Position numbers and translations under genes: made by a program
Part shown: positions 4,481-19,434 of the stretch, piece by piece
How the letters are laid out: each line of letters begins with the position of its first letter
How positions within the stretch are numbered: position 1 is the first letter of the stretch
The notes under the pieces: model-generated
The model's database searches: none
Told to the model about the DNA's origin: nothing
Seen by the model: the letters and a program-made list of their open reading frames with translations, nothing else
Source of the DNA: Nitrosomonas europaea
GTDB lineage: Bacteria; Pseudomonadota; Gammaproteobacteria; Burkholderiales; Nitrosomonadaceae
NCBI RefSeq assembly: GCF_900167395.1
Contig: NZ_FUWK01000033.1
Coordinates: 864 to 32,863 of the forward strand
DNA: 32,000 nucleotides
Direction: 5' to 3'

Positions 4481-5533
4481 TCATGAGTCACAATCTTTTT
4501 CTTTCCTGCGATTAAACTCGCGATAAATGCTCGGCGCCACGCCGATCCAGCGCTTGAAGGCGAGATTGAACGCCGGGAGTGCCGTATATCCCAGCAGGCC
4601 ACAGATGTTGCTGATGGGAACATCGGTCGTTTCCAGCATCTCGCATGCAAGTGATTCCCTCACCTTGTCCAGGATCGCCGAAAAGCTGGTGTTTTCCTGC
4701 TGCAGCAGGCGCTGCAGCTTCTTTGGACTGAGTCCCAGCGATACCGCGAAGTACTCGAGATTGCACAGGCTGGTATTGAGCACGATCGGGATGCCAGCGG
4801 CGACGGTTGCCGCGACCGACTGATCATAGAGCGGCATCTTGGCAATCCGGTAACGCAGATAGAGATCGAGCAATGGCTCGAGTCCGGCCAGGCGACCATT
4901 GGTCGGTCGATTGAGATATTCATGCGGGAATACGAGCTCGTTGTGCGCAGCTTCGAACTCGACCGGGCAGTCGAAAAGTGCTTCATGCGGTTGCGTGTCA
5001 CAAGGACGGGCATGGCGGAACCGGATGAGATGGGCTTTTTCATCTGTAGCATCGATCACGGTTCTGGCCATTCGGTAGAATGTAGCGACCAGTCCTTCTG
5101 TCTGCTGGCGCGGGGATTTTGCCAGGGGATCCTTCAACAGCCGCACGTATGCGAACGGGCCGCCGTCCCTGATCAGTAACGGAACCCAGGCATTCGTGTA
5201 GTAGCGCGCGTAGCGCTCGCATGCGTCAAGCCATTCTTCAAAGGTGTGCGTGATCTGTGAAAGAAAGATTGCTGCTCCTGCGGTGGGATAAGTATTCGGC
5301 AGCGAAAAAGCATGATCCAGGCCGAAGTTCGGACGTCCTAGTTCCTGCGCCGCTAGTTCGCAGAATATACCCTGGCGGGGCCAGGAGATGAGTATGTCGG
5401 GATTGCTGAACGCTTCCCTTGGCAGCCCTGCCTGGTCGGCCAGGGTATGGAGATCACCACCGGATGAATGGACGAGATCATCGAATCCAAACAGGCAATT
5501 CGGACGGATGTAGGGCTCTCGCCGCCCAATCAT
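4481..5533 (-). CDS. AraC-family transcriptional regulator (N-terminal arabinose-binding-like domain, C-terminal double HTH).
   Basis: C-terminus ISNICGLLGYTALPAFNLAFKRWIGVAPSIYR is the AraC HTH_18 signature. Start trimmed to MIGRREPYIRPN (ATG 5533). Divergent from the autotransporter gene. Confidence 0.85.
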   Translation of the reverse strand: MIGRREPYIRPNCLFGFDDLVHSSGGDLHTLADQAGLPREAFSNPDILISWPRQGIFCELAAQELGRPNFGLDHAFSLPNTYPTAGAAIFLSQITHTFEEWLDACERYARYYTNAWVPLLIRDGGPFAYVRLLKDPLAKSPRQQTEGLVATFYRMARTVIDATDEKAHLIRFRHARPCDTQPHEALFDCPVEFEAAHNELVFPHEYLNRPTNGRLAGLEPLLDLYLRYRIAKMPLYDQSVAATVAAGIPIVLNTSLCNLEYFAVSLGLSPKKLQRLLQQENTSFSAILDKVRESLACEMLETTDVPISNICGLLGYTALPAFNLAFKRWIGVAPSIYREFNRRKEKDCDS

Positions 5534-9489: not shown

Positions 9490-10953
9490 TCAGAGAACGG
9501 GCGGCATCATGCCGCGATGAAATATCCATGCAACCCCGTAAGCAATCGGGGCAATGATGCCGAACAGCGCAATTGCATAGAGTAATGCCAACTTCCCCAT
9601 TCCTTTGAGCTTGCTGAAGTCAGTTATGATGCCGATGCTGATAAAGGTGAGCATGAACATCATGTTACGCATTGGCCCCTCGACTGCGGCAGCAGCTTTA
9701 TGCAAGGTTTCAGCGGCTTCTGATCCGCTGGAGGCGAGCATGATGTACGAAAACCAGACCAGGAGATAACCCAGTACAAATTTCGGGAACCGGTGCCAGA
9801 TTTCCATCAGTCCGATTTTGGACTGGCCGGGTTTGCGTTCTACTTTATATACCCACACCAGCGCCAGAACGAAGGCCCAGACACCGATAAACATATCGAT
9901 CCAGATTTTCGTGGTCAGTGATGCCATCAAAATCCAGCCTTCTTTCCATACGATGCCCAGGTTGGCCTCGGCATTGGCACGCATCAATTCATCCAGCATG
10001 GCTCCGGCAGCTGCATCGGCACCATCTGTCTTGACTGTCAGCCCCAGAGCGGAGCCGTTGACGATAGGCTGCTCCGGTGCTATTGCCGTATAAAACCCCG
10101 GCAGGATGATGAGTTCGAACATGGCGAAGATCACGACCAGAATCGAGACGAATGCCGGAAGTGCCGGGCGGGCACGAATGGCACCGGCGGTGGCGATGGC
10201 AGCCGATATGCCGCAGATGGAAATGCCGGAAGAAAGGACCGCTGCGGCATCACGTGATAAATGGAATACTCTGCGGCCAAGCGCATAGACGATCGGCCAG
10301 AACAGCATATAGGCGACAAAAGTAGCCGCAACCCCGGTCATGACCAGTTCTGTAATGAAACCGGCTGCTTCGATGGACATGACGCCGATTTTGATACCCA
10401 GGAATACGATTGCCGTTTTGATGAACCATTCCGGTTTTGCTGCTTCGTTGAGAAATCTGGCGGTATTTTTGAAGAAATTGCCGATGACGAGCCCGACCAG
10501 CAACGCCAGCAGGTAAGAAAAACCGCTGCCGAGAGACAATCCCCAGGACAGGCCATATTTGTCCATTTCATAGACAGAGGCTTTGAAATGAGCTTCATTG
10601 CCGATGATCCAGATGACCCAGGTCATGATGAAAAGAATGGTCCAACCGATAAAAAACTGTTTCAGGTCAAATTTCATCGACCATGCTGCCAGACAGGTCA
10701 GGGCGGTAAATACCAGATAAGTCACCAGTAACGACAATGCCGGATGCCATTCCGGCTTGCCACTGGATTTCAGTACGCCTTCGATGGAAAATTTTTCCCA
10801 TACCCAGGTGTCGGGTTTGGCCATCCAGCCGGTCAGCTCCCATCCCCAGAGTGAACTGACGCTCGCCATGAACATGATCAATCCCAGCCAGACTGCCCAC
10901 CAGTCTTCCGTTCTGGCCATACCTGAATACCATTTGTCATTCATTGCATTCAT
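9490..10953 (-). CDS. Polytopic membrane transporter, YeiH/UPF0324 (putative sulfate exporter) family-like.
   Basis: 487 aa with more than 10 hydrophobic segments. LSSGISICGISAAIATAGAI resembles the G-x-x-ICG-x-SA motif of the family. SD GAGGAA lies 11 nt upstream of the ATG. Longer than typical family members (~350 aa). Confidence 0.6.
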   Translation of the reverse strand: MNAMNDKWYSGMARTEDWWAVWLGLIMFMASVSSLWGWELTGWMAKPDTWVWEKFSIEGVLKSSGKPEWHPALSLLVTYLVFTALTCLAAWSMKFDLKQFFIGWTILFIMTWVIWIIGNEAHFKASVYEMDKYGLSWGLSLGSGFSYLLALLVGLVIGNFFKNTARFLNEAAKPEWFIKTAIVFLGIKIGVMSIEAAGFITELVMTGVAATFVAYMLFWPIVYALGRRVFHLSRDAAAVLSSGISICGISAAIATAGAIRARPALPAFVSILVVIFAMFELIILPGFYTAIAPEQPIVNGSALGLTVKTDGADAAAGAMLDELMRANAEANLGIVWKEGWILMASLTTKIWIDMFIGVWAFVLALVWVYKVERKPGQSKIGLMEIWHRFPKFVLGYLLVWFSYIMLASSGSEAAETLHKAAAAVEGPMRNMMFMLTFISIGIITDFSKLKGMGKLALLYAIALFGIIAPIAYGVAWIFHRGMMPPVL

Positions 10954-10974: not shown

Positions 10975-11253
10975 TTATTGCACCACTGATACAGGTGATT
11001 TCAAGTCCAGACGGATGTAACGGTTGAAGTAATGGTAGGCGTATTGGCGTATCCAGGCGGGAATGCAGCTATGATCGAAAATCATGAATACTGTCACGCA
11101 GCTATTTTCCGGAAATAATTGCCTGTCCAGCAGATACCGGATCAGAGCCTGATCCAGTTCCGCCAGGGTTTGTCCGCAAGCTTCGAAGTCCTGATGGTAT
11201 GCGATCCATTTGATCCCATCATGTATCAACCGAACTTCCAGATCAGCTTTCAT
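10975..11253 (-). CDS. Hypothetical 92-aa protein with weak HicB/DUF1902-like fold resemblance.
   Basis: MKADLEVRLIHDGIKWIAYHQDFEACGQTLAELDQALIRYL. Its ATG (11253-11251) overlaps the stop (11252-11250) of the upstream small ORF as ATGA. Start trimmed from the 120-aa track ORF. Confidence 0.45.
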   Translation of the reverse strand: MKADLEVRLIHDGIKWIAYHQDFEACGQTLAELDQALIRYLLDRQLFPENSCVTVFMIFDHSCIPAWIRQYAYHYFNRYIRLDLKSPVSVVQ

Positions 11254-11465
11254 TTTTGTCCCGGAAGGAGGAACCAGTCCACCAGAATACCCAGAATGAC
11301 CAGTGCCGCGATACCGATTCCTATACTCCACAGGCACAGGCTGGTTTCCCAGCTTTCCCAGGGCTCGGGCTCTCCCAGCACGGACTGATCGGGTAATAAT
11401 CTGCTCATGTCATTTTCGAGAGACTGGCTGTAGGTCTCGTTATCTGCATCATTGGGTGTCGTCAT
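11250..11465 (-). CDS. Small (71 aa) acidic protein with a single C-terminal TM helix.
   Basis: ...EPEPWESWETSLCLWSIGIGIAALVILGILVDWFLLPGQK. The ATG at 11465 is preferred over the GTG at 11477. It is translationally coupled to the next ORF. Weak SD. Confidence 0.4.
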   Translation of the reverse strand: MTTPNDADNETYSQSLENDMSRLLPDQSVLGEPEPWESWETSLCLWSIGIGIAALVILGILVDWFLLPGQK

Positions 11466-11698
11466 CGTCGTTCTCACATAGAAAGAGAAAGTATTCCTTT
11501 TCAGAAGGATTCATTTCATTCACATTTGGTCGAGGCAGGCTTCCGGATTTTCCGGGAAGGATGTCATCCTATCCCGCATGATCGGCGTTTGATTCGCACA
11601 ATACGTATCTCGCACTGGCCAAAGATGTAGGGCGAAGTTACCTTTCAACCTTATCATAAATAATCTCGTATCCGGAAACGAAAGAAGCTTGTTTATGG

Positions 11699-11749
11699 AT
11701 CATCCTGTTTCTAAAGCAGTGCAGCTGAATGAGGCTGAAACAGGATGAT
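11699..11749. repeat. 13-bp perfect inverted repeat (ATCATCCTGTTTC / GAAACAGGATGAT) with a 25-nt loop.
   Basis: Arms at 11699-11711 and 11737-11749, read directly. It lies in the long intergenic region. Confidence 0.5.
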
Positions 11750-11856
11750 GACCCTCTGATAGTAGCGTATTACATGAAAATACGAACAAAGTCGGGTGGA
11801 ACCGGAATTTATTCCAATTGATTACCGGAGAAGTTTGTTTAGTCCGGGATGGGTTG

Positions 11857-11886
11857 TTGACAATGATTCTCATTATCTGCTATTTT
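11857..11886 (+). promoter_or_regulatory. Sigma70-type promoter (TTGACA-18 nt-TATTTT) with an embedded near-consensus Fur box.
   Basis: GACAATGATTCTCATTATC (11859-11877) matches the E. coli Fur consensus GATAATGATAATCATTATC at 16 of 19 positions. The -35 TTGACA is at 11857-11862 and the -10 TATTTT at 11881-11886. Confidence 0.6.
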
Positions 11887-12108
11887 TCGAAAAAATCGGA
11901 TTTGCATATAAATGTTTCTTGTTGCAGCCGGCTGATTGGCTGACAGTTTCAAATTTCCGATAAATATTTTTTCACGGCCGGGAAAGCATTCTCTGGTTTT
12001 CTACCCGGCCGACGCTTTCTGCCAGCTTTCGCCTGTTTTTTGCCAAGCCAGCCTCGTATTTCGATATTGCCAGCCAGACCCTGTTTTCGGTCCGCCAGCC
12101 CTTGGGTG

Positions 12109-12378
12109 GGAACCTCTGCACGAATCCCACATGGCCGCACACTGTGTTTTGCGGATGGAATGCAAGGCGAGTGAGGTAGTGAATGGTGACCCCTTCACGA
12201 CGAACTCAACGCTGCAGTCCGTCTGCAAAATCAGTGCCCTCAGGGTTGTGGCAAAATCACGCGCTCGCTGTGTCGTGCGCCTCGGCATCGTAGAATAACT
12301 ACGACCTTCGTTGCGCTCCTTGCGATCATCATGATTTTGCCCGCAATGCGGTTCATGGAGGATTCGTGCAGAGGTTCC
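12109..12378. mobile_element. 270-bp MITE-like element bounded by perfect 19-bp terminal inverted repeats.
   Basis: GGAACCTCTGCACGAATCC at 12109-12127 and its exact reverse complement at 12360-12378. Imperfect complementarity (CATG..CCGCA) extends about 12 nt inward. Nested internal hairpins. No convincing ORF. No obvious target-site duplication. Confidence 0.45.
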
Positions 12379-12434
12379 TTAAAAATCCGTCAGTACATGT
12401 CGTGCTGTCAGTTTAATTTCAGGAGCGTAATCGT

Positions 12435-13133
12435 ATGTTGTCTTTATGCAGAATCATCATCAGTCTCTTGCTGGTCGGCTTGAGTGGTCAGGCTGCTGCC
12501 GATATTTCCAACAGCCCGAATCCTTATGATGCCGGGTATGGTTTCGATACACCGGATGAGGCCGGCTGGGGTGGCTGGATGCGAGGTGGTGCAAGTACGC
12601 TTTATGCCGAGTGGGATACCATTTCCGATGCCAGTTATGGTGGTAGTGGTGATCGGACAGCTGCGCCTGATATAGGTACCCATAACGTGGCTGATGCTTA
12701 TCTTAGTTGGAACCCGGGTGTTTTTGTCACCAGCACGGGTAATCTCATTACCCCTAGTGTAGTGCAAGAATTCTTCATTCGTATATCGCCCGTATCTTTG
12801 TTCAGCGGCCCGCTCGTCGTTGCATTGCAGGTCGAGATGTGGGGAGATGAGCCTGCTGCGCCTCTGCTCAATGGTCTTGCTGCATCCAGCTGGACCAGGA
12901 CTTTCACGGGCACTTCCGTGACCGATCATGATTTGAACCAGTATCTTGGGCTGTGGTATTTTGCCAACACGGTAAATCATTTCGAGTTTGATCTTACAAA
13001 TCAACCGTTTATATCGCTTGCGCAAGTGGCGGTGGATATCGCCCAGGTATCGGAACCGTACATGCTGGCTATCATGCTGACTGGCCTGATTCTGATTGGA
13101 TCGATGACACGGTACCGCAGCAGACCAATCTGA
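12435..13133 (+). CDS. Secreted PEP-CTERM-type sorting-signal protein (SEP variant); N-terminal domain of unknown function.
   Basis: SD AGGAG lies 8 nt upstream. Signal peptide MLSLCRIIISLLLVGLSGQAAA. The C-terminus VSEP-YMLAIMLTGLILIGSMT-RYRSR has the motif, TM helix and basic cluster. Confidence 0.75.
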   Translation: MLSLCRIIISLLLVGLSGQAAADISNSPNPYDAGYGFDTPDEAGWGGWMRGGASTLYAEWDTISDASYGGSGDRTAAPDIGTHNVADAYLSWNPGVFVTSTGNLITPSVVQEFFIRISPVSLFSGPLVVALQVEMWGDEPAAPLLNGLAASSWTRTFTGTSVTDHDLNQYLGLWYFANTVNHFEFDLTNQPFISLAQVAVDIAQVSEPYMLAIMLTGLILIGSMTRYRSRPI

Positions 13134-16403: not shown

Positions 16404-16982
16404 ATGGGTTCCAGAGCGGGTCATCCTTGTTCTTTGAAGTTGCAGGCAGCGGGTTTGCGCTCCACATCCACACGATTGAGCATACTGAAAGTCCTGGAGG
16501 CTGATTCGCAAAGATGGATTGAAGGTGAGGCGATCTTCAGGGAACTGATTGCACGCGGGACGACCATCAGCCTGGCAACTGTATATCGTGCGCTCAAGGA
16601 TCTCGATCATCGCGGGGTGCTGTTACGTGAATGGCGCGTCGGGGCCAGTGGTGGAAAGGCTGTCTACAGGTTGAGCTCGCATGATTTGCAAGATCGTAAA
16701 GGAGCCATCGTATGTCGTCAGTGTGGAGCCAGTGTGCCTATGGACGATTCTGTATTACTGCATGAACACCTGAGACAACTCGCTTCCAGGCATGGTTTTG
16801 TCCTGACGGAACAGCCCGTGACGATTCATATGACCTGTGGTCGTTGTGCAGGGGCGTCAGACAAAAAGGCTCTTCATGAAAAGAATACTTCTCCGACACT
16901 TCAACATTCCATGCCATTACTCCCTGCCAGGCGCCGAAAGAATAAGGCATCTGATGTGACCTGGCCAATTGAGTGCGAGTGA
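16404..16982 (+). CDS. Fur-family metalloregulator paralog, atypical (no HHDH motif, ~45-aa C-terminal extension).
   Basis: N-terminal winged helix LRSTSTRLSILKVLE...ISLATVYRALKDLDHRGVL. Two CxxC pairs (CRQCG, CGRCAG). SHD replaces the canonical HHDH. SD GGAGGGG upstream. Confidence 0.8.
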   Translation: MGSRAGHPCSLKLQAAGLRSTSTRLSILKVLEADSQRWIEGEAIFRELIARGTTISLATVYRALKDLDHRGVLLREWRVGASGGKAVYRLSSHDLQDRKGAIVCRQCGASVPMDDSVLLHEHLRQLASRHGFVLTEQPVTIHMTCGRCAGASDKKALHEKNTSPTLQHSMPLLPARRRKNKASDVTWPIECE

Positions 16983-17109
16983 AATGAACAGCCAAAATGA
17001 AGGGGCGTATGTGCTATACATTTTTCCGGTATTCCCGGCAGCAGGGAGGGGCATCACACCCGATCCAGCGGATGGGCACGATTCAAAAACAGGAGTATTC
17101 AGATGAAAA

Positions 17110-17144
17110 AACAATGATTGTCACCTGATTGATACTCATATTTT
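17110..17144 (+). promoter_or_regulatory. Weak Fur-box-like AT-rich sequence upstream of the TonB-dependent receptor.
   Basis: AACAATGATTGTCACCTGA matches the 19-bp Fur consensus at only about 10 of 19 positions. The adjacent TGATTGATACTCATA is also poor. Confidence 0.2.
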
Positions 17145-17214
17145 CTTTGTATTTACTATTTTTATAACAAAAATTTGGTTTTCAACCAATTATTTAACTT
17201 AAGGGAGATTGAAA

Positions 17215-19434
17215 ATGGCAAAGGTGTCTTCTCGTTCATGGGGGATATTCCCGATCAGGCCGGTTGTATCTGCATTGACACTGGCTTTTGGTGGGATGGC
17301 AGGTGCAAATGCAAGTGAGCCTGTGCCGCTACCTGAAATCAAGGTCAAATCAGGGAAAACCAGTGAAAGAAGCAATGAATACAAGGTAGATAAATCTGCC
17401 AGTCAGAAATTTACCGCTCCGCTCATTGATACACCCAAATCGATCACTGTCATTACCGATGAAGTCATCAAGGATAGCGGTTCGCTGACGTTCCAGGATG
17501 CGCTGCGGACCACACCGGGGATTACTTTCGGTAGTGGTGAAGGGGGTATTGCGTCAGGTGATCGCCCGTTCATTCGTGGATTCGACGTTTTTTCATCGAT
17601 TTATGTGGATGGTTTACGCGATCTCGGTACTCAGACACGTGAAATCTTCGCAGTCGAGCAGATGGAAGTACTGAAAGGCCCGAGCGGTAGTTTTGACGGT
17701 AGAGGTTCTGCAGGGGGTAGTATCAATATCGTCACCAAGCAGGCGCGGGCAGGCAACTTTTTCAAGGGTTCTGCCGGGCTCGGTACCGAAAAATTCAAGC
17801 GCGGGACAATCGATGGTAATTATACGATTGGGGAAAATGTTGCTGTCCGTCTGGTAGGAATGGCACACAAAGCGGATACCCCGGGACGTGATGGCGTCGA
17901 TGTTGAACGCTGGGGGTTGATGCCTTCCATTACTCTGGGACTGAATACCGCGACCAGTGCTACCTTCAGCTGGTATCACTTTGAAACGGATGATAAGTCG
18001 GACTGGGGAATTCCGTTCATTCAGAATACTGCAAATGGCGGCATTCCGGAAGGGAAGCCGGTGGGTTCCAGAAGCGCCTGGTATGGTGTTAAGGGCCGGG
18101 ATTTTCAGGATACTTCAGCCGATATCGGTACATTCAAAATTTCACATGCATTCAGCGATAATCTGGTCGTGCGCAATACTACGCGCTATAGCATCACGAC
18201 CAATGAATTCTTCGTCGGTCGCCCTAACATCAGCAGTGCTGATTTTGCAGCGGGCCTTGTGAACAGGGACGCTACGAGAAACCGTGGCACCAGAACCGAG
18301 ACGGTTGCCAACCTGACGGATGTATCGTTCATCTTTGATACCGGGTTCATCAAACATAGTTTGAATGCCGGTTTCGAAGTCAGTTGGGAAGATTACCGGA
18401 ATCGCACTTATGCCGGTGGTGCGATTATCAACCCGGCTGATCGTCTAACGCCGCTGGGTAATCCTGATTCATCAGTTGCGTTCGATCCCGTCACCCGCAA
18501 CGCGTATCCCAGTGCGGAAATAGAAGCTCATAATAAATCGGCTTATATATTCGATAGTATGGAGCTGACAGAAAAAATACTGTTCAATGCCGGTATTCGA
18601 TTTGATAATTATCAGGTCGATTTACAGAATCGCAATGCCAGTACCGGTGCCAATACGACTTCTTTCAAGCAAAACAAAAGTTTCTTCAATTATCAGGTAG
18701 GGGCTGTTTATAAGATGCAGCCCAATGCGAATATTTATGCAGCCTTTGCCACATCTTCTTCACCTGTCGGTTTGTCCATGGGAGATTTCGGTTATGCGGG
18801 CGGTGATCTAAATGCTAATACAGAAAGTTTGAAGCCAGAACGTACCGAAACTTATGAAGTAGGTACCAAGTGGCATGTATTGCACGATCTGGCGCTGACT
18901 GCCGCAGTGTTCCACACGATCAAAACCAATGCACGCGTCAACGTGGGCCCATCTGTTGAGAATGCAGGTAGAGCTGTAGTGAATGGTTTTGAACTTGGTT
19001 TTGCAGGGAATGTGACTGATAAGTGGAATGTATTCGGGGGGTATACCTTCCTCGATGCGGAACAGACTCGGGTAGGCGACAGCACCGATCAGAATGCAGT
19101 GGGTTCAGCCGGCAGTAAAGGTAAACAGCTGCATGGCACTCCCAAACATGCTGCCAGCTTCTGGTCTACCTACAAGGTGTTGCCACGTGTAACGCTCGGT
19201 GGCGGGTTATTCTATACCGGCAAGGTATATGCTGATCCCAGTAACAATGGCTATCTCCCGTCCTATGTGCGTTTCGACCTGATGGCAAAATATAACATTA
19301 GCCAGAATCTGGACGTGCAGTTGAATGTTCAGAATCTGACGGACAAACGTTATTTCAATACGACCTATTTTCGCCACTATGCTATACCGGCACCGGGACG
19401 TGTTGCGTTTGTCAACCTGAACTTAAAATTCTGA
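17215..19434 (+). CDS. TonB-dependent outer-membrane siderophore receptor, catecholate (Fiu/Cir)-like.
   Basis: SD AAGGGAG lies 7 nt before the ATG at 17215. Signal peptide, then DKSASQKFTAPLIDTPKSITVIT (plug). Beta-barrel ends ...VNLNLKF. No N-terminal FecA-type signalling extension. Confidence 0.92.
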   Translation: MAKVSSRSWGIFPIRPVVSALTLAFGGMAGANASEPVPLPEIKVKSGKTSERSNEYKVDKSASQKFTAPLIDTPKSITVITDEVIKDSGSLTFQDALRTTPGITFGSGEGGIASGDRPFIRGFDVFSSIYVDGLRDLGTQTREIFAVEQMEVLKGPSGSFDGRGSAGGSINIVTKQARAGNFFKGSAGLGTEKFKRGTIDGNYTIGENVAVRLVGMAHKADTPGRDGVDVERWGLMPSITLGLNTATSATFSWYHFETDDKSDWGIPFIQNTANGGIPEGKPVGSRSAWYGVKGRDFQDTSADIGTFKISHAFSDNLVVRNTTRYSITTNEFFVGRPNISSADFAAGLVNRDATRNRGTRTETVANLTDVSFIFDTGFIKHSLNAGFEVSWEDYRNRTYAGGAIINPADRLTPLGNPDSSVAFDPVTRNAYPSAEIEAHNKSAYIFDSMELTEKILFNAGIRFDNYQVDLQNRNASTGANTTSFKQNKSFFNYQVGAVYKMQPNANIYAAFATSSSPVGLSMGDFGYAGGDLNANTESLKPERTETYEVGTKWHVLHDLALTAAVFHTIKTNARVNVGPSVENAGRAVVNGFELGFAGNVTDKWNVFGGYTFLDAEQTRVGDSTDQNAVGSAGSKGKQLHGTPKHAASFWSTYKVLPRVTLGGGLFYTGKVYADPSNNGYLPSYVRFDLMAKYNISQNLDVQLNVQNLTDKRYFNTTYFRHYAIPAPGRVAFVNLNLKF

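What the first reader, a model, noticed from the sequence alone, without database searches (positions are those of the whole stretch)
11857..11950. Near-consensus Fur box inside a strong promoter about 550 nt from the next ORF: a possible Fur-repressed sRNA or long iron-regulated leader
GACAATGATTCTCATTATC matches the 19-bp Fur consensus at 16 of 19 positions. It occupies the -35/spacer of TTGACA-18 nt-TATTTT on the + strand, the classic geometry for Fur repression. The first credible downstream CDS (the PEP-CTERM protein) starts at 12435. Within about 60 nt of the predicted start site there is a CAGCC-N8-GGCTG hairpin followed by a T-containing stretch (about 11925-11955). That could end a short RyhB/PrrF/NrrF-type iron-sparing sRNA. 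Otherwise the transcript reads through a highly structured leader.
Basis: partly seen in the sequence, partly recalled or inferred. Interest (0 to 1): 0.6.

Follow-up and report, generated by a model that had tools for sequence, protein, structure and literature searches.

The report
Fur-controlled promoter with long conserved leader
The iron-repressor (Fur) binding site is real and conserved, but it most likely switches on the downstream surface-protein gene NE0726 through a long structured leader when iron is scarce; a free-standing small RNA is not supported.

Summary
The window is Nitrosomonas europaea, genes NE0724 to NE0731. GACAATGATTCTCATTATC (11859-11877) matches the Fur consensus at 16/19 (17/19 on the other strand). 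It is the only such site in 32 kb and overlaps TTGACA-18-TATTTT. The promoter and box are almost unchanged upstream of NE0726 orthologues in nine lineages. Two of these have a different genomic neighbourhood, so the box belongs to NE0726 and not to the divergent NE0725 operon. Distant NE0726 homologues almost always lie inside TonB-receptor/haem-uptake operons, which explains iron control. The sRNA reading is not supported. No terminator is predicted, the CAGCC-N8-GGCTG hairpin folds no better than shuffles, that stretch is deleted in some relatives, and Rfam finds nothing. About 270 nt of the 540-nt leader is a polymorphic hairpin insertion flanked by inverted repeats (12109-12378). The rest holds a conserved array of GCCAGC hexamers flanking hairpins. 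Thiobacillus-like relatives have the same operator type and the same GCCAGC leader upstream of PEP-CTERM genes. This may be a translational control element, but that is not proven. Verdict: a genuine Fur-regulated promoter of an iron/haem-uptake-associated PEP-CTERM gene, with an uncharacterised conserved leader.

The parts
11857..11862 (+). -35 hexamer TTGACA
   Evidence: Found by the promoter scan. Invariant in 8 aligned orthologous lineages.
11859..11877 (.). Fur box GACAATGATTCTCATTATC. Its 7-1-7 core is TGACAATGATTCTCA at 11858-11872.
   Evidence: Matches the consensus at 16/19 on + and 17/19 on -, with 0.02 expected by chance. It is the only site in the window at <=5 mismatches. It is conserved upstream of NE0726 orthologues in 9 lineages. 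The 7-1-7 core has 2/14 mismatches.
11878..11886 (+). Extended -10 element, TGC-TATTTT
   Evidence: TG before the second hexamer: yes. TGnTAnTTT is kept in all orthologues.
11893..11975 (+). 5' part of the leader, variable between lineages. The start at about 11893 is inferred from the -10 position.
   Evidence: Fold z = -0.5 to -0.9. Deleted or rearranged in L013, L009, L015 and L011. No terminator predicted.
11976..12010 (+). GGCCGGG...CCCGGCC hairpin. It looks like a degenerate copy of the GCCAGC repeat unit.
   Evidence: Strong in this strain. The pairing is not kept in L008, L020, L015 or L011, where the arms read GCCAGG or CCAGCC.
12020..12108 (+). Conserved leader core. GCCAGC hexamers start at 12021, 12047, 12069 and 12094. 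A covarying hairpin runs GACC 12077-12080 / GGTC 12089-12092. A C/U-rich stretch at 12100-12106 can pair with the ribosome-binding site.
   Evidence: GCCAG is enriched (5 copies in 260 nt; 0 of 2000 shuffles reach this). It is the only GCCAGC cluster in the 32 kb. Consensus structure from RNAalifold with 3 compensatory pairs in the hairpin. The same motif array is seen in Thiobacillus-type leaders.
12109..12378 (.). Insertion flanked by inverted repeats and resembling a MITE (small non-autonomous mobile element). It has 25-nt arms at 12109-12133 and 12354-12378 and folds into a very stable hairpin.
   Evidence: Arms. Fold -138.9 kcal/mol, z = -9.3. Full length in the window and L022, arms only in L008/L023/L024/L025, intermediate in L009, absent in L021/L049/L013/L015/L011.
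12379..12434 (+). 3' end of the leader. Hairpin CAGTAC 12391-12396 / GTGCTG 12402-12407, and ribosome-binding site AGGAG at 12421-12425.
   Evidence: Conserved block. The site pairs with 12100-12102 in the minimum-energy fold.
12435..13133 (+). NE0726: 232-aa protein with a signal peptide and a PEP-CTERM-type sorting tail. This is the gene served by the promoter.
   Evidence: Identity to CAD84637. Locus tag order from the supplement. Homologues lie in TonB/haem operons. Alignment A4.

Best explanation
11857-11886 is a sigma-70 promoter whose -35 element and spacer are covered by a near-consensus Fur operator. When iron is plentiful, Fe-Fur (NE0616 in N. europaea) blocks RNA polymerase. When iron is scarce, transcription starts near 11893 and runs through a roughly 540-nt 5' leader into NE0726 (12435-13133). 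NE0726 encodes a secreted protein sorted by exosortase. Its relatives in other Betaproteobacteria are built into TonB-dependent receptor/haem-utilisation operons.

The leader is not filler. About 270 nt is a self-folding insertion flanked by inverted repeats, present in only some strains. The ancestral roughly 190-330 nt carries a conserved array of GCCAGC hexamers flanking hairpins. It ends in a stretch that can pair with the ribosome-binding site, which suggests a second, post-transcriptional layer of control.

Shown here:
- the sequence features
- their conservation
- linkage of the operator to the gene
- the iron/haem genomic context of the family

Inferred, not shown:
- Fur binding
- the transcription start site
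- read-through to the gene
- any function of the leader
For: Fur box statistics and promoter geometry.

Conservation: the 30-nt promoter/operator block is nearly invariant in 9 lineages whose NE0726 proteins are 67-100% identical, while the flanks diverge.

Linkage to NE0726: in L011/L012 (efp upstream, a phosphonate-type ABC transporter downstream) and L015 (a DJ-1/PfpI gene upstream), the neighbours differ and the upstream gene is co-directional. The box still sits 309-324 nt before the NE0726 orthologue.

No competing promoter: nothing better lies nearer the gene, and there is no sigma-54 site or TTTACA motif.

Iron/haem context of the family: of the loci with 35-50% identical homologues that have enough flanking DNA for a neighbour to show, 24 of 27 show one of two contexts; L050, L052 and L026 do not fit either order. 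One is TonB receptor, 75-aa gene, homologue, HemS/ChuX, PNPOx, periplasmic binding protein. The other is PNPOx, PEP-CTERM gene, 314-aa gene, homologue, TonB receptor.

Thiobacillus-type operons start with the same operator type, ATTGACAATCGTTCTCATTTAT, followed by a GCCAGC/hairpin leader.

Literature: N. europaea Fur (NE0616) acts on E. coli-type Fur boxes, and iron-repressible N. europaea genes carry such boxes (PMC3050691).

Expression: NE0726 is low, about 21-25 units against 98-314 for NE0731, in chemostat RNA-seq that did not test iron (PMC6967387 supplement). This is compatible with repression but does not prove it.
Against: There is no direct evidence here for Fur binding, the start site, or read-through.

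A leader of 190-540 nt is long for a Fur-regulated gene.

One orthologous locus (L007) has lost the -35/Fur box but keeps the leader and gene, so another promoter may exist in some lineages.

The pairing with the ribosome-binding site has no compensatory changes. The pairing stretch is missing in L021, L049 and L013. Single-sequence folds are not significantly stable.

The Fur paralogue NE0730 is encoded 4 kb away and could in principle be the regulator instead of NE0616.
Confidence: 0.72

Rival explanations
1. The promoter makes a short Fur-repressed trans-acting sRNA of the RyhB/PrrF/NrrF type. It would end within about 60-130 nt of the start, and NE0726 would be transcribed separately.
For: The Fur box and promoter are real. 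Hairpins lie at 11925-11942 and 11976-12010. Window, L008, L021 and L009 keep the first hairpin with one C-G to U-A change. From memory, and not checkable here: Gvakharia et al. 2010 (PMID 20840601, not held) reported an iron/Fur-responsive candidate sRNA, psRNA11, in N. europaea. I do not know where it maps.
Against: No terminator-like site is found in 11400-12500. The hairpins lack U-tracts, and the fold z-score is -0.5 to -0.9. The 5' 80 nt is deleted or replaced in L013, L009, L015 and L011, while the promoter and the 3' leader are kept. The promoter always travels with the same CDS. There is no Rfam match, and no other promoter for NE0726.
Confidence: 0.12
2. The Fur box regulates the divergent operon NE0725 / DUF5395 gene / NE0724 on the minus strand.
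For: The box lies in the shared 970-nt intergenic region, 394 nt from the NE0725 start. Fur boxes can act on divergent promoters.
Against: No minus-strand promoter overlaps the box. In L011/L012 and L015 that operon is absent from the neighbourhood, yet the box is retained next to the NE0726 orthologue. The DNA between the box and NE0725 is conserved only near NE0725 (11478 to about 11710) and is variable or deleted next to the box.
Confidence: 0.05
3. The leader, not the promoter, is the main point of control. The GCCAGC/hairpin array would be a cis-regulatory RNA bound by a protein, an sRNA or a small ligand such as haem, and it would open or close the ribosome-binding site. Fur would only provide coarse control.
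For: The motif array is conserved and unique to these leaders. Hairpins show compensatory changes. In both the Nitrosomonas and Thiobacillus types, a stretch complementary to the ribosome-binding site follows directly after a GCCAGC(C) copy. The insertion sits in a loop and leaves the helix intact.
Against: There are few independent sequences (8 + 4). The structure was derived from the same sequences on which it was counted. The pairing stretch is absent in three lineages. The GCCAGC copies never vary, so they could equally be DNA sites for a transcription factor. Folding energies are not exceptional.
Confidence: 0.3

Closest known systems
Classical Fur-repressed promoters of iron-uptake genes (E. 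coli fiu, fhuA, fepA; N. europaea NE0616 fur promoter, PMC3050691)
   Same: A 19-bp Fur box overlaps the -35 and spacer of a strong sigma-70 promoter. The target belongs to an iron/haem acquisition gene family. The operator is conserved across species.
   Different: The regulated gene is a stand-alone PEP-CTERM protein of unknown function. It is separated from the promoter by a leader of 190-540 nt that carries conserved repeats.
Fur-regulated iron-sparing sRNAs: RyhB (RF00057), PrrF (RF00444), NrrF (RF01416), and the N. europaea candidate psRNA11 (Gvakharia 2010, from memory)
   Same: A Fur box sits in the promoter, and a non-coding transcript starts far from any CDS.
   Different: There is no terminator and no sequence or structure match. 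The proximal transcribed part is not conserved, and the promoter is always coupled to the same downstream CDS.
PEP-CTERM genes with long upstream regions carrying the PrsR enhancer / sigma-54 box (Haft et al. 2006, PMC1569441)
   Same: A single-gene PEP-CTERM unit is preceded by an unusually long non-coding region that holds a family-specific repeated motif.
   Different: Motif 1 (…TTTACA) and the -24 GG / -12 GC sigma-54 motif are absent. A sigma-70/Fur promoter and GCCAGC repeats are found instead.
Correia/NEMIS-type MITEs of Neisseria (co-transcribed hairpin insertions in 5' UTRs; from general knowledge)
   Same: The element at 12109-12378 has terminal inverted repeats and folds into a long hairpin. 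It sits inside a transcribed leader and varies between strains in presence and length.
   Different: There is no sequence similarity. Multi-copy status was not shown (one copy in this window, none in plasmids). The target-site duplication is unclear.

Membership tests
Fur-repressed sigma-70 promoter | Match to the 19-bp Fur consensus (or 7-1-7 core) beyond chance | tested here: met
   16/19 and 17/19 matches with 0.02 expected per window. The 7-1-7 core has 2/14 mismatches.
Fur-repressed sigma-70 promoter | The operator overlaps the -35/-10 elements of a promoter facing a gene | tested here: met
   TTGACA-18-TATTTT at 11857-11886, with the box at 11859-11877.
Fur-repressed sigma-70 promoter | The operator is conserved with the target gene in related genomes | tested here: met
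   9 lineages in 3 genomic contexts, with one exception, L007.
Fur-repressed sigma-70 promoter | The target is functionally linked to iron homeostasis | tested here: met
   By genomic context only: homologues lie in TonB receptor / HemS / PNPOx / binding-protein operons.
Fur-repressed sigma-70 promoter | Fur binds the site, and transcription is derepressed by iron limitation or in a fur mutant | not testable with these tools
   Needs EMSA or footprinting and RNA measurements. The only indirect point is low NE0726 expression in an experiment that did not vary iron.
Fur-regulated trans-acting sRNA (RyhB/PrrF/NrrF type) | An intrinsic terminator defines a short transcript | tested here: not met
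   0 terminator-like sites in 11400-12500. The hairpins lack U-tracts.
Fur-regulated trans-acting sRNA (RyhB/PrrF/NrrF type) | Sequence or structure of the sRNA body is conserved | tested here: not met
   11893-11975 is deleted or replaced in L013, L009, L015 and L011. Fold z = -0.5 to -0.9.
Fur-regulated trans-acting sRNA (RyhB/PrrF/NrrF type) | Match to a described family | tested here: not met
   No Rfam match at gathering score. At E <= 10 there is only a spurious Methylosinus-1 hit at 12 bits.
Fur-regulated trans-acting sRNA (RyhB/PrrF/NrrF type) | A discrete short RNA is detectable and acts on target mRNAs | not testable with these tools
   Needs Northern blot or RNA-seq. The psRNA11 paper is not held.
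PrsR / sigma-54 PEP-CTERM box (Haft 2006) | A 17-nt motif ending in TTTACA, followed about 63 nt later by a -24 GG / -12 GC sigma-54 site about 71 nt before the ATG | tested here: not met
   No TTTACA on either strand. The best GG-N10-GC site scores 5/11. Definition taken from PMC1569441.
MITE (for 12109-12378) | Terminal inverted repeats and presence/absence polymorphism at an otherwise conserved site | tested here: met
   25-nt arms, 92% complementary. Empty, short, intermediate and full forms are seen.
MITE (for 12109-12378) | Multiple dispersed copies and a target-site duplication | tested here: inconclusive
   There is only one copy in the 32-kb window and none in plasmids. The flanks do not show a clear duplication.
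Leader RNA that sequesters the ribosome-binding site (riboswitch or attenuator-like) | A conserved helix pairs the ribosome-binding site, supported by covariation | tested here: inconclusive
   The helix is predicted and 93% of cells are paired, but there are no compensatory changes. It is missing in L021, L049 and L013.

The most novel reading that the evidence does not exclude
The 5' leader of NE0726 and the leaders of PEP-CTERM genes in Thiobacillus-like iron/haem loci may be an undescribed class of cis-regulatory RNA. It would consist of tandem units in which two GCCAGC hexamers bracket a covarying hairpin (able to pair GC/GC around a CA·CA internal loop). The array would end in a stretch that masks the ribosome-binding site. 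It would be read by an unknown protein, sRNA or ligand (haem or iron status). That would add a post-transcriptional switch to Fur control of surface proteins sorted by exosortase.
Probability: 0.25. Interest if true: 0.65.

Novelty: new variant of a known kind. Interest (0 to 1): 0.42.

Why it matters
N. europaea makes no siderophores and depends on scavenging iron, yet much of its Fur regulon is undefined. This result adds a well-supported Fur target. It also links an uncharacterised family of exosortase-sorted (PEP-CTERM) surface proteins to TonB-dependent haem/iron uptake, a connection not described for the PEP-CTERM system. Finally, it points to a conserved leader motif, not in Rfam, that can be tested directly with reporter fusions. 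It also removes a false lead: this site is not good evidence for a RyhB-like sRNA.

Tried and rejected
- Rfam on the whole window, on 11800-12480 at E <= 10, and on 11 related loci: nothing.
- Terminator scan: none.
- Sigma-54 / PrsR box search: absent.
- Small ORFs in the leader (for example 11936-12298, 120 aa): no family hits, and the ORF spans the polymorphic insertion, so it was rejected as coding.
- Alternative promoters at 11940 and 12040 (9/12 each): their hexamers are not conserved in relatives.
- Literature: the psRNA11 paper (PMID 20840601) is not held, and no held paper mentions psRNA11 or NE0726 in its main text.
- AlphaFold model of NE0726: poor, pLDDT 58. Foldseek against the PDB gave only generic jelly-roll matches with E > 6e-3, so no functional inference was drawn.
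- The inverted-repeat element against plasmids: no match.
- A single covariance model for the GCCAGC-hairpin unit: abandoned, because MAFFT placed the stems in different registers.
- The genome-contig scan returned only two MAG loci and not the N. europaea reference itself.

Full report
**Identity of the window.** The proteins encoded around the finding are identical to N. europaea ATCC 19718 entries:
- CAD84635 = NE0724, a YeiH-like membrane protein (9490-10953, minus strand)
- CAD84636 = NE0725, 71 aa
- CAD84637 = the 232-aa PEP-CTERM protein (12435-13133)
- CAD84641 = the Fur paralogue NE0730 (16404-16982)

A published expression table lists NE0727 as pyrC, which fixes the PEP-CTERM gene as NE0726. 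The gene order is: autotransporter, NE0724 (-), an unannotated DUF5395 gene (-), NE0725 (-), a 970-nt gap, NE0726 (+), pyrC (+), histidine kinase (-), response regulator (-), NE0730 (+), TonB siderophore receptor NE0731 (+).

**The observation.**
- The Fur box at 11859-11877 has 3 mismatches on the plus strand and 2 on the minus strand. About 0.02 such matches are expected in 32 kb. It remains the only site in the window when 5 mismatches are allowed.
- It lies inside TTGACA-18-TATTTT, with a TG extension before the -10 (10/12).
- The next gene starts at 12435.
Folding 11893-11960 gives -14.4 kcal/mol, z = -0.54, with 59 of 200 shuffles folding as well.
- The scan finds no terminator-like site in 11400-12500.

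**Which gene owns the box.** I collected orthologous loci through exact-protein look-ups and two collection scans.
- A Fur box with 2-4 mismatches, embedded in the same TTGACA…TAnTTT promoter, lies 224-589 nt upstream of the NE0726 orthologue in nine lineages. Their proteins are 67-100% identical to NE0726.
- Two lineages have a different neighbourhood. In L011/L012 the upstream gene is efp and an ABC transporter lies downstream. In L015 a DJ-1/PfpI gene lies upstream. In both, the upstream gene is co-directional, so only the PEP-CTERM gene, or an RNA made in front of it, can be the target.
- This rules out the divergent NE0725 operon as the main target. In addition, the DNA next to the box on that side is variable or deleted in relatives.
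- One locus (L007) has lost the -35 and the box but keeps the rest of the leader.

**Why iron.** More distant homologues (35-50% identity; alignment A4) were found in 28 further loci. I annotated these with a local tblastn panel. 27 of them have enough flanking DNA for a neighbour to show, and 24 of those 27 show one of two orders; L050, L052 and L026 do not fit either:
- TonB-dependent receptor, 75-aa gene, homologue, HemS/ChuX, PNPOx-type protein, periplasmic binding protein, FecCD permease. This is a haem-uptake operon.
- PNPOx, another PEP-CTERM gene, a 314-aa gene, homologue, TonB receptor, next to ferritin.

The family therefore belongs to TonB-dependent iron/haem acquisition. In the N. 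europaea lineage the gene stands alone and has kept its own Fur promoter. Published work shows that N. europaea Fur (NE0616) represses through E. coli-type boxes and that iron-repressible genes of this organism carry them. NE0730 did not complement an E. coli fur mutant, and no box was found for NE0730 (PMC3050691). This agrees with the absence of other boxes in the window.

**The sRNA alternative.**
- No terminator is predicted, and no Rfam family matches, including at E <= 10.
- The first 80 nt downstream of the presumed start are the least conserved part of the transcribed region. They are missing in L013, largely missing in L009, and different in L015 and L011.
- The close relatives keep the 11925-11942 hairpin with one compensatory change. 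It looks like one of several leader hairpins and not a terminator.
- I recall that Gvakharia et al. 2010 described an iron/Fur-responsive candidate sRNA (psRNA11) in this organism. The paper is not held and I could not check its location. This is the one published item that could change the verdict.

**Anatomy of the leader.**
1. 12109-12378 is an element with 25-nt inverted terminal arms. It folds to -138.9 kcal/mol, z = -9.3.
 - It is full length in the window and L022.
 - It is reduced to arms plus a 13-15-nt loop in L008, L023, L024 and L025. L023 encodes a 99.5% identical protein.
 - It is intermediate in L009, absent in L021, L049, L013, L015 and L011, and leaves a GGTTTC remnant in L020.
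 - It explains the 'highly structured' impression and about half of the 550 nt.
2. 12020-12108 is the conserved core.
 - GCCAG occurs five times in 260 nt, which 0 of 2000 shuffles reach, at 21-26-nt spacing. It forms part of a 48-nt higher-order repeat (D2).
 - In the window and in every Nitrosomonas locus, this is the only cluster of three or more GCCAGC within 110 nt, always on the coding strand.
3. RNAalifold was run on eight leaders with the insertion removed.
 - It predicts a hairpin bracketed by two GCCAGC copies, with three pairs showing compensatory changes.
 - It then predicts a helix between CYCUGAG (CCCUUGGG in this strain) and the UUUCAGGAG ribosome-binding region. That helix encloses the insertion point and a small hairpin.
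 - In the N. europaea minimum-energy fold, the CCU at 12100-12102 pairs with the AGG of the ribosome-binding site, with or without the insertion.
 - Support is limited. This helix has no compensatory changes, the pairing stretch is absent in L021, L049 and L013, and the energies are ordinary.

**The same module in a second lineage.** Thiobacillus-type operons (L017, L028, L039, L048) start with ATTGACAATCGTTCTCATTTAT. This has the same -35 and a 7-1-7 Fur core with 3/14 mismatches. A leader of about 200 nt follows. It is built from hairpins flanked by GCCAGC and contains an AAUCCCC stretch that can pair with either GGGAU or the GGGGAU ribosome-binding site. Five compensatory pairs appear among four sequences. 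A short version with two GCCAGCCAG copies sits directly before the NE0726 homologue in the same operons, where UCCCY pairs with the ribosome-binding site. L026 shows a comparable layout. The long leader is therefore an inherited, family-specific feature and not an accident of this strain. Haft et al. 2006 noted that PEP-CTERM genes typically have long upstream regions with a PrsR/sigma-54 box. That box is absent here.

**Conclusion.** The finding is a genuine, conserved Fur-controlled promoter. Its most probable product is the NE0726 mRNA with a long leader (confidence about 0.7). A stand-alone sRNA is unlikely (about 0.1). The unexpected part is the conserved GCCAGC/hairpin leader shared with distant relatives. 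Its function is unknown. My preferred reading is post-transcriptional control of ribosome access, held with low confidence. The protein itself remains uncharacterised: it has no Pfam or NCBIfam family, the model is poor, and there is no structural match.

Noticed in passing
window 12109-12378: A 270-nt element with 25-nt terminal inverted repeats and nested internal palindromes. It folds to -138.9 kcal/mol (z = -9.3). Its length varies between near-identical strains (full, arms only, intermediate, absent). It has no Rfam or plasmid match, and this is its only copy in the window.
   Followed up: partly
L018 2864-3000; L037, L042 and L044 about 4810-5000; also L029, L031, L035, L038, L030, L027, L047: In haem-uptake operons, the 140-250-nt gap between the 75-aa gene and the NE0726 homologue holds a different, strongly conserved structured element: CCGCCACCGC…GCGGA.AGCCGGC.UGGGGCCGAAACGGCGG … CGUCUUCGCGGYGAAGAG. 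Seven pairs show compensatory changes, and there is no Rfam hit at gathering score. It could be an undescribed cis-regulatory RNA.
   Followed up: partly
L017 780-1011; L028 1650-1948; L039 1655-1875; L048 1640-1868: Thiobacillus-type iron loci carry the same TTGACA / Fur-core operator and a GCCAGC-hairpin leader in front of a second, unrelated PEP-CTERM gene (247 aa).
   Followed up: partly
window 11699-11749: A perfect 13-bp inverted repeat (ATCATCCTGTTTC / GAAACAGGATGAT) with a 25-nt loop lies between NE0725 and the Fur box. It is kept in L008 and L009, half-deleted in L021, and absent in L013. Its function is unknown.
   Followed up: partly
window 10975-11253 (or to 11337), minus strand: A DUF5395 gene (92 aa as called in other assemblies; the ORF extends to 120 aa) lies between NE0724 and NE0725. 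The look-up returned no ATCC 19718 (CAD) protein accession for it, unlike the four flanking genes looked up in the same call. It overlaps the end of NE0725.
   Followed up: no
L007 1-130: One Nitrosomonas MAG has the -35 and Fur box replaced by unrelated sequence, while the -10, leader and gene are nearly identical to L015. This is a natural operator-loss variant.
   Followed up: partly
window 16404-19434: No Fur box (<=5 mismatches) precedes the Fur paralogue NE0730 or the siderophore receptor NE0731, even though these are iron-related genes. For NE0730 this is consistent with PMC3050691.
   Followed up: partly
proteins P0011 / P0026 (N. europaea strain with a 2,892,991-bp contig): In another N. 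europaea assembly, NE0726 is annotated as two fragments (108 and 130 aa; locus tags ABHF54_05855 and ABHF54_05865). This suggests the gene is disrupted in that strain.
   Followed up: no
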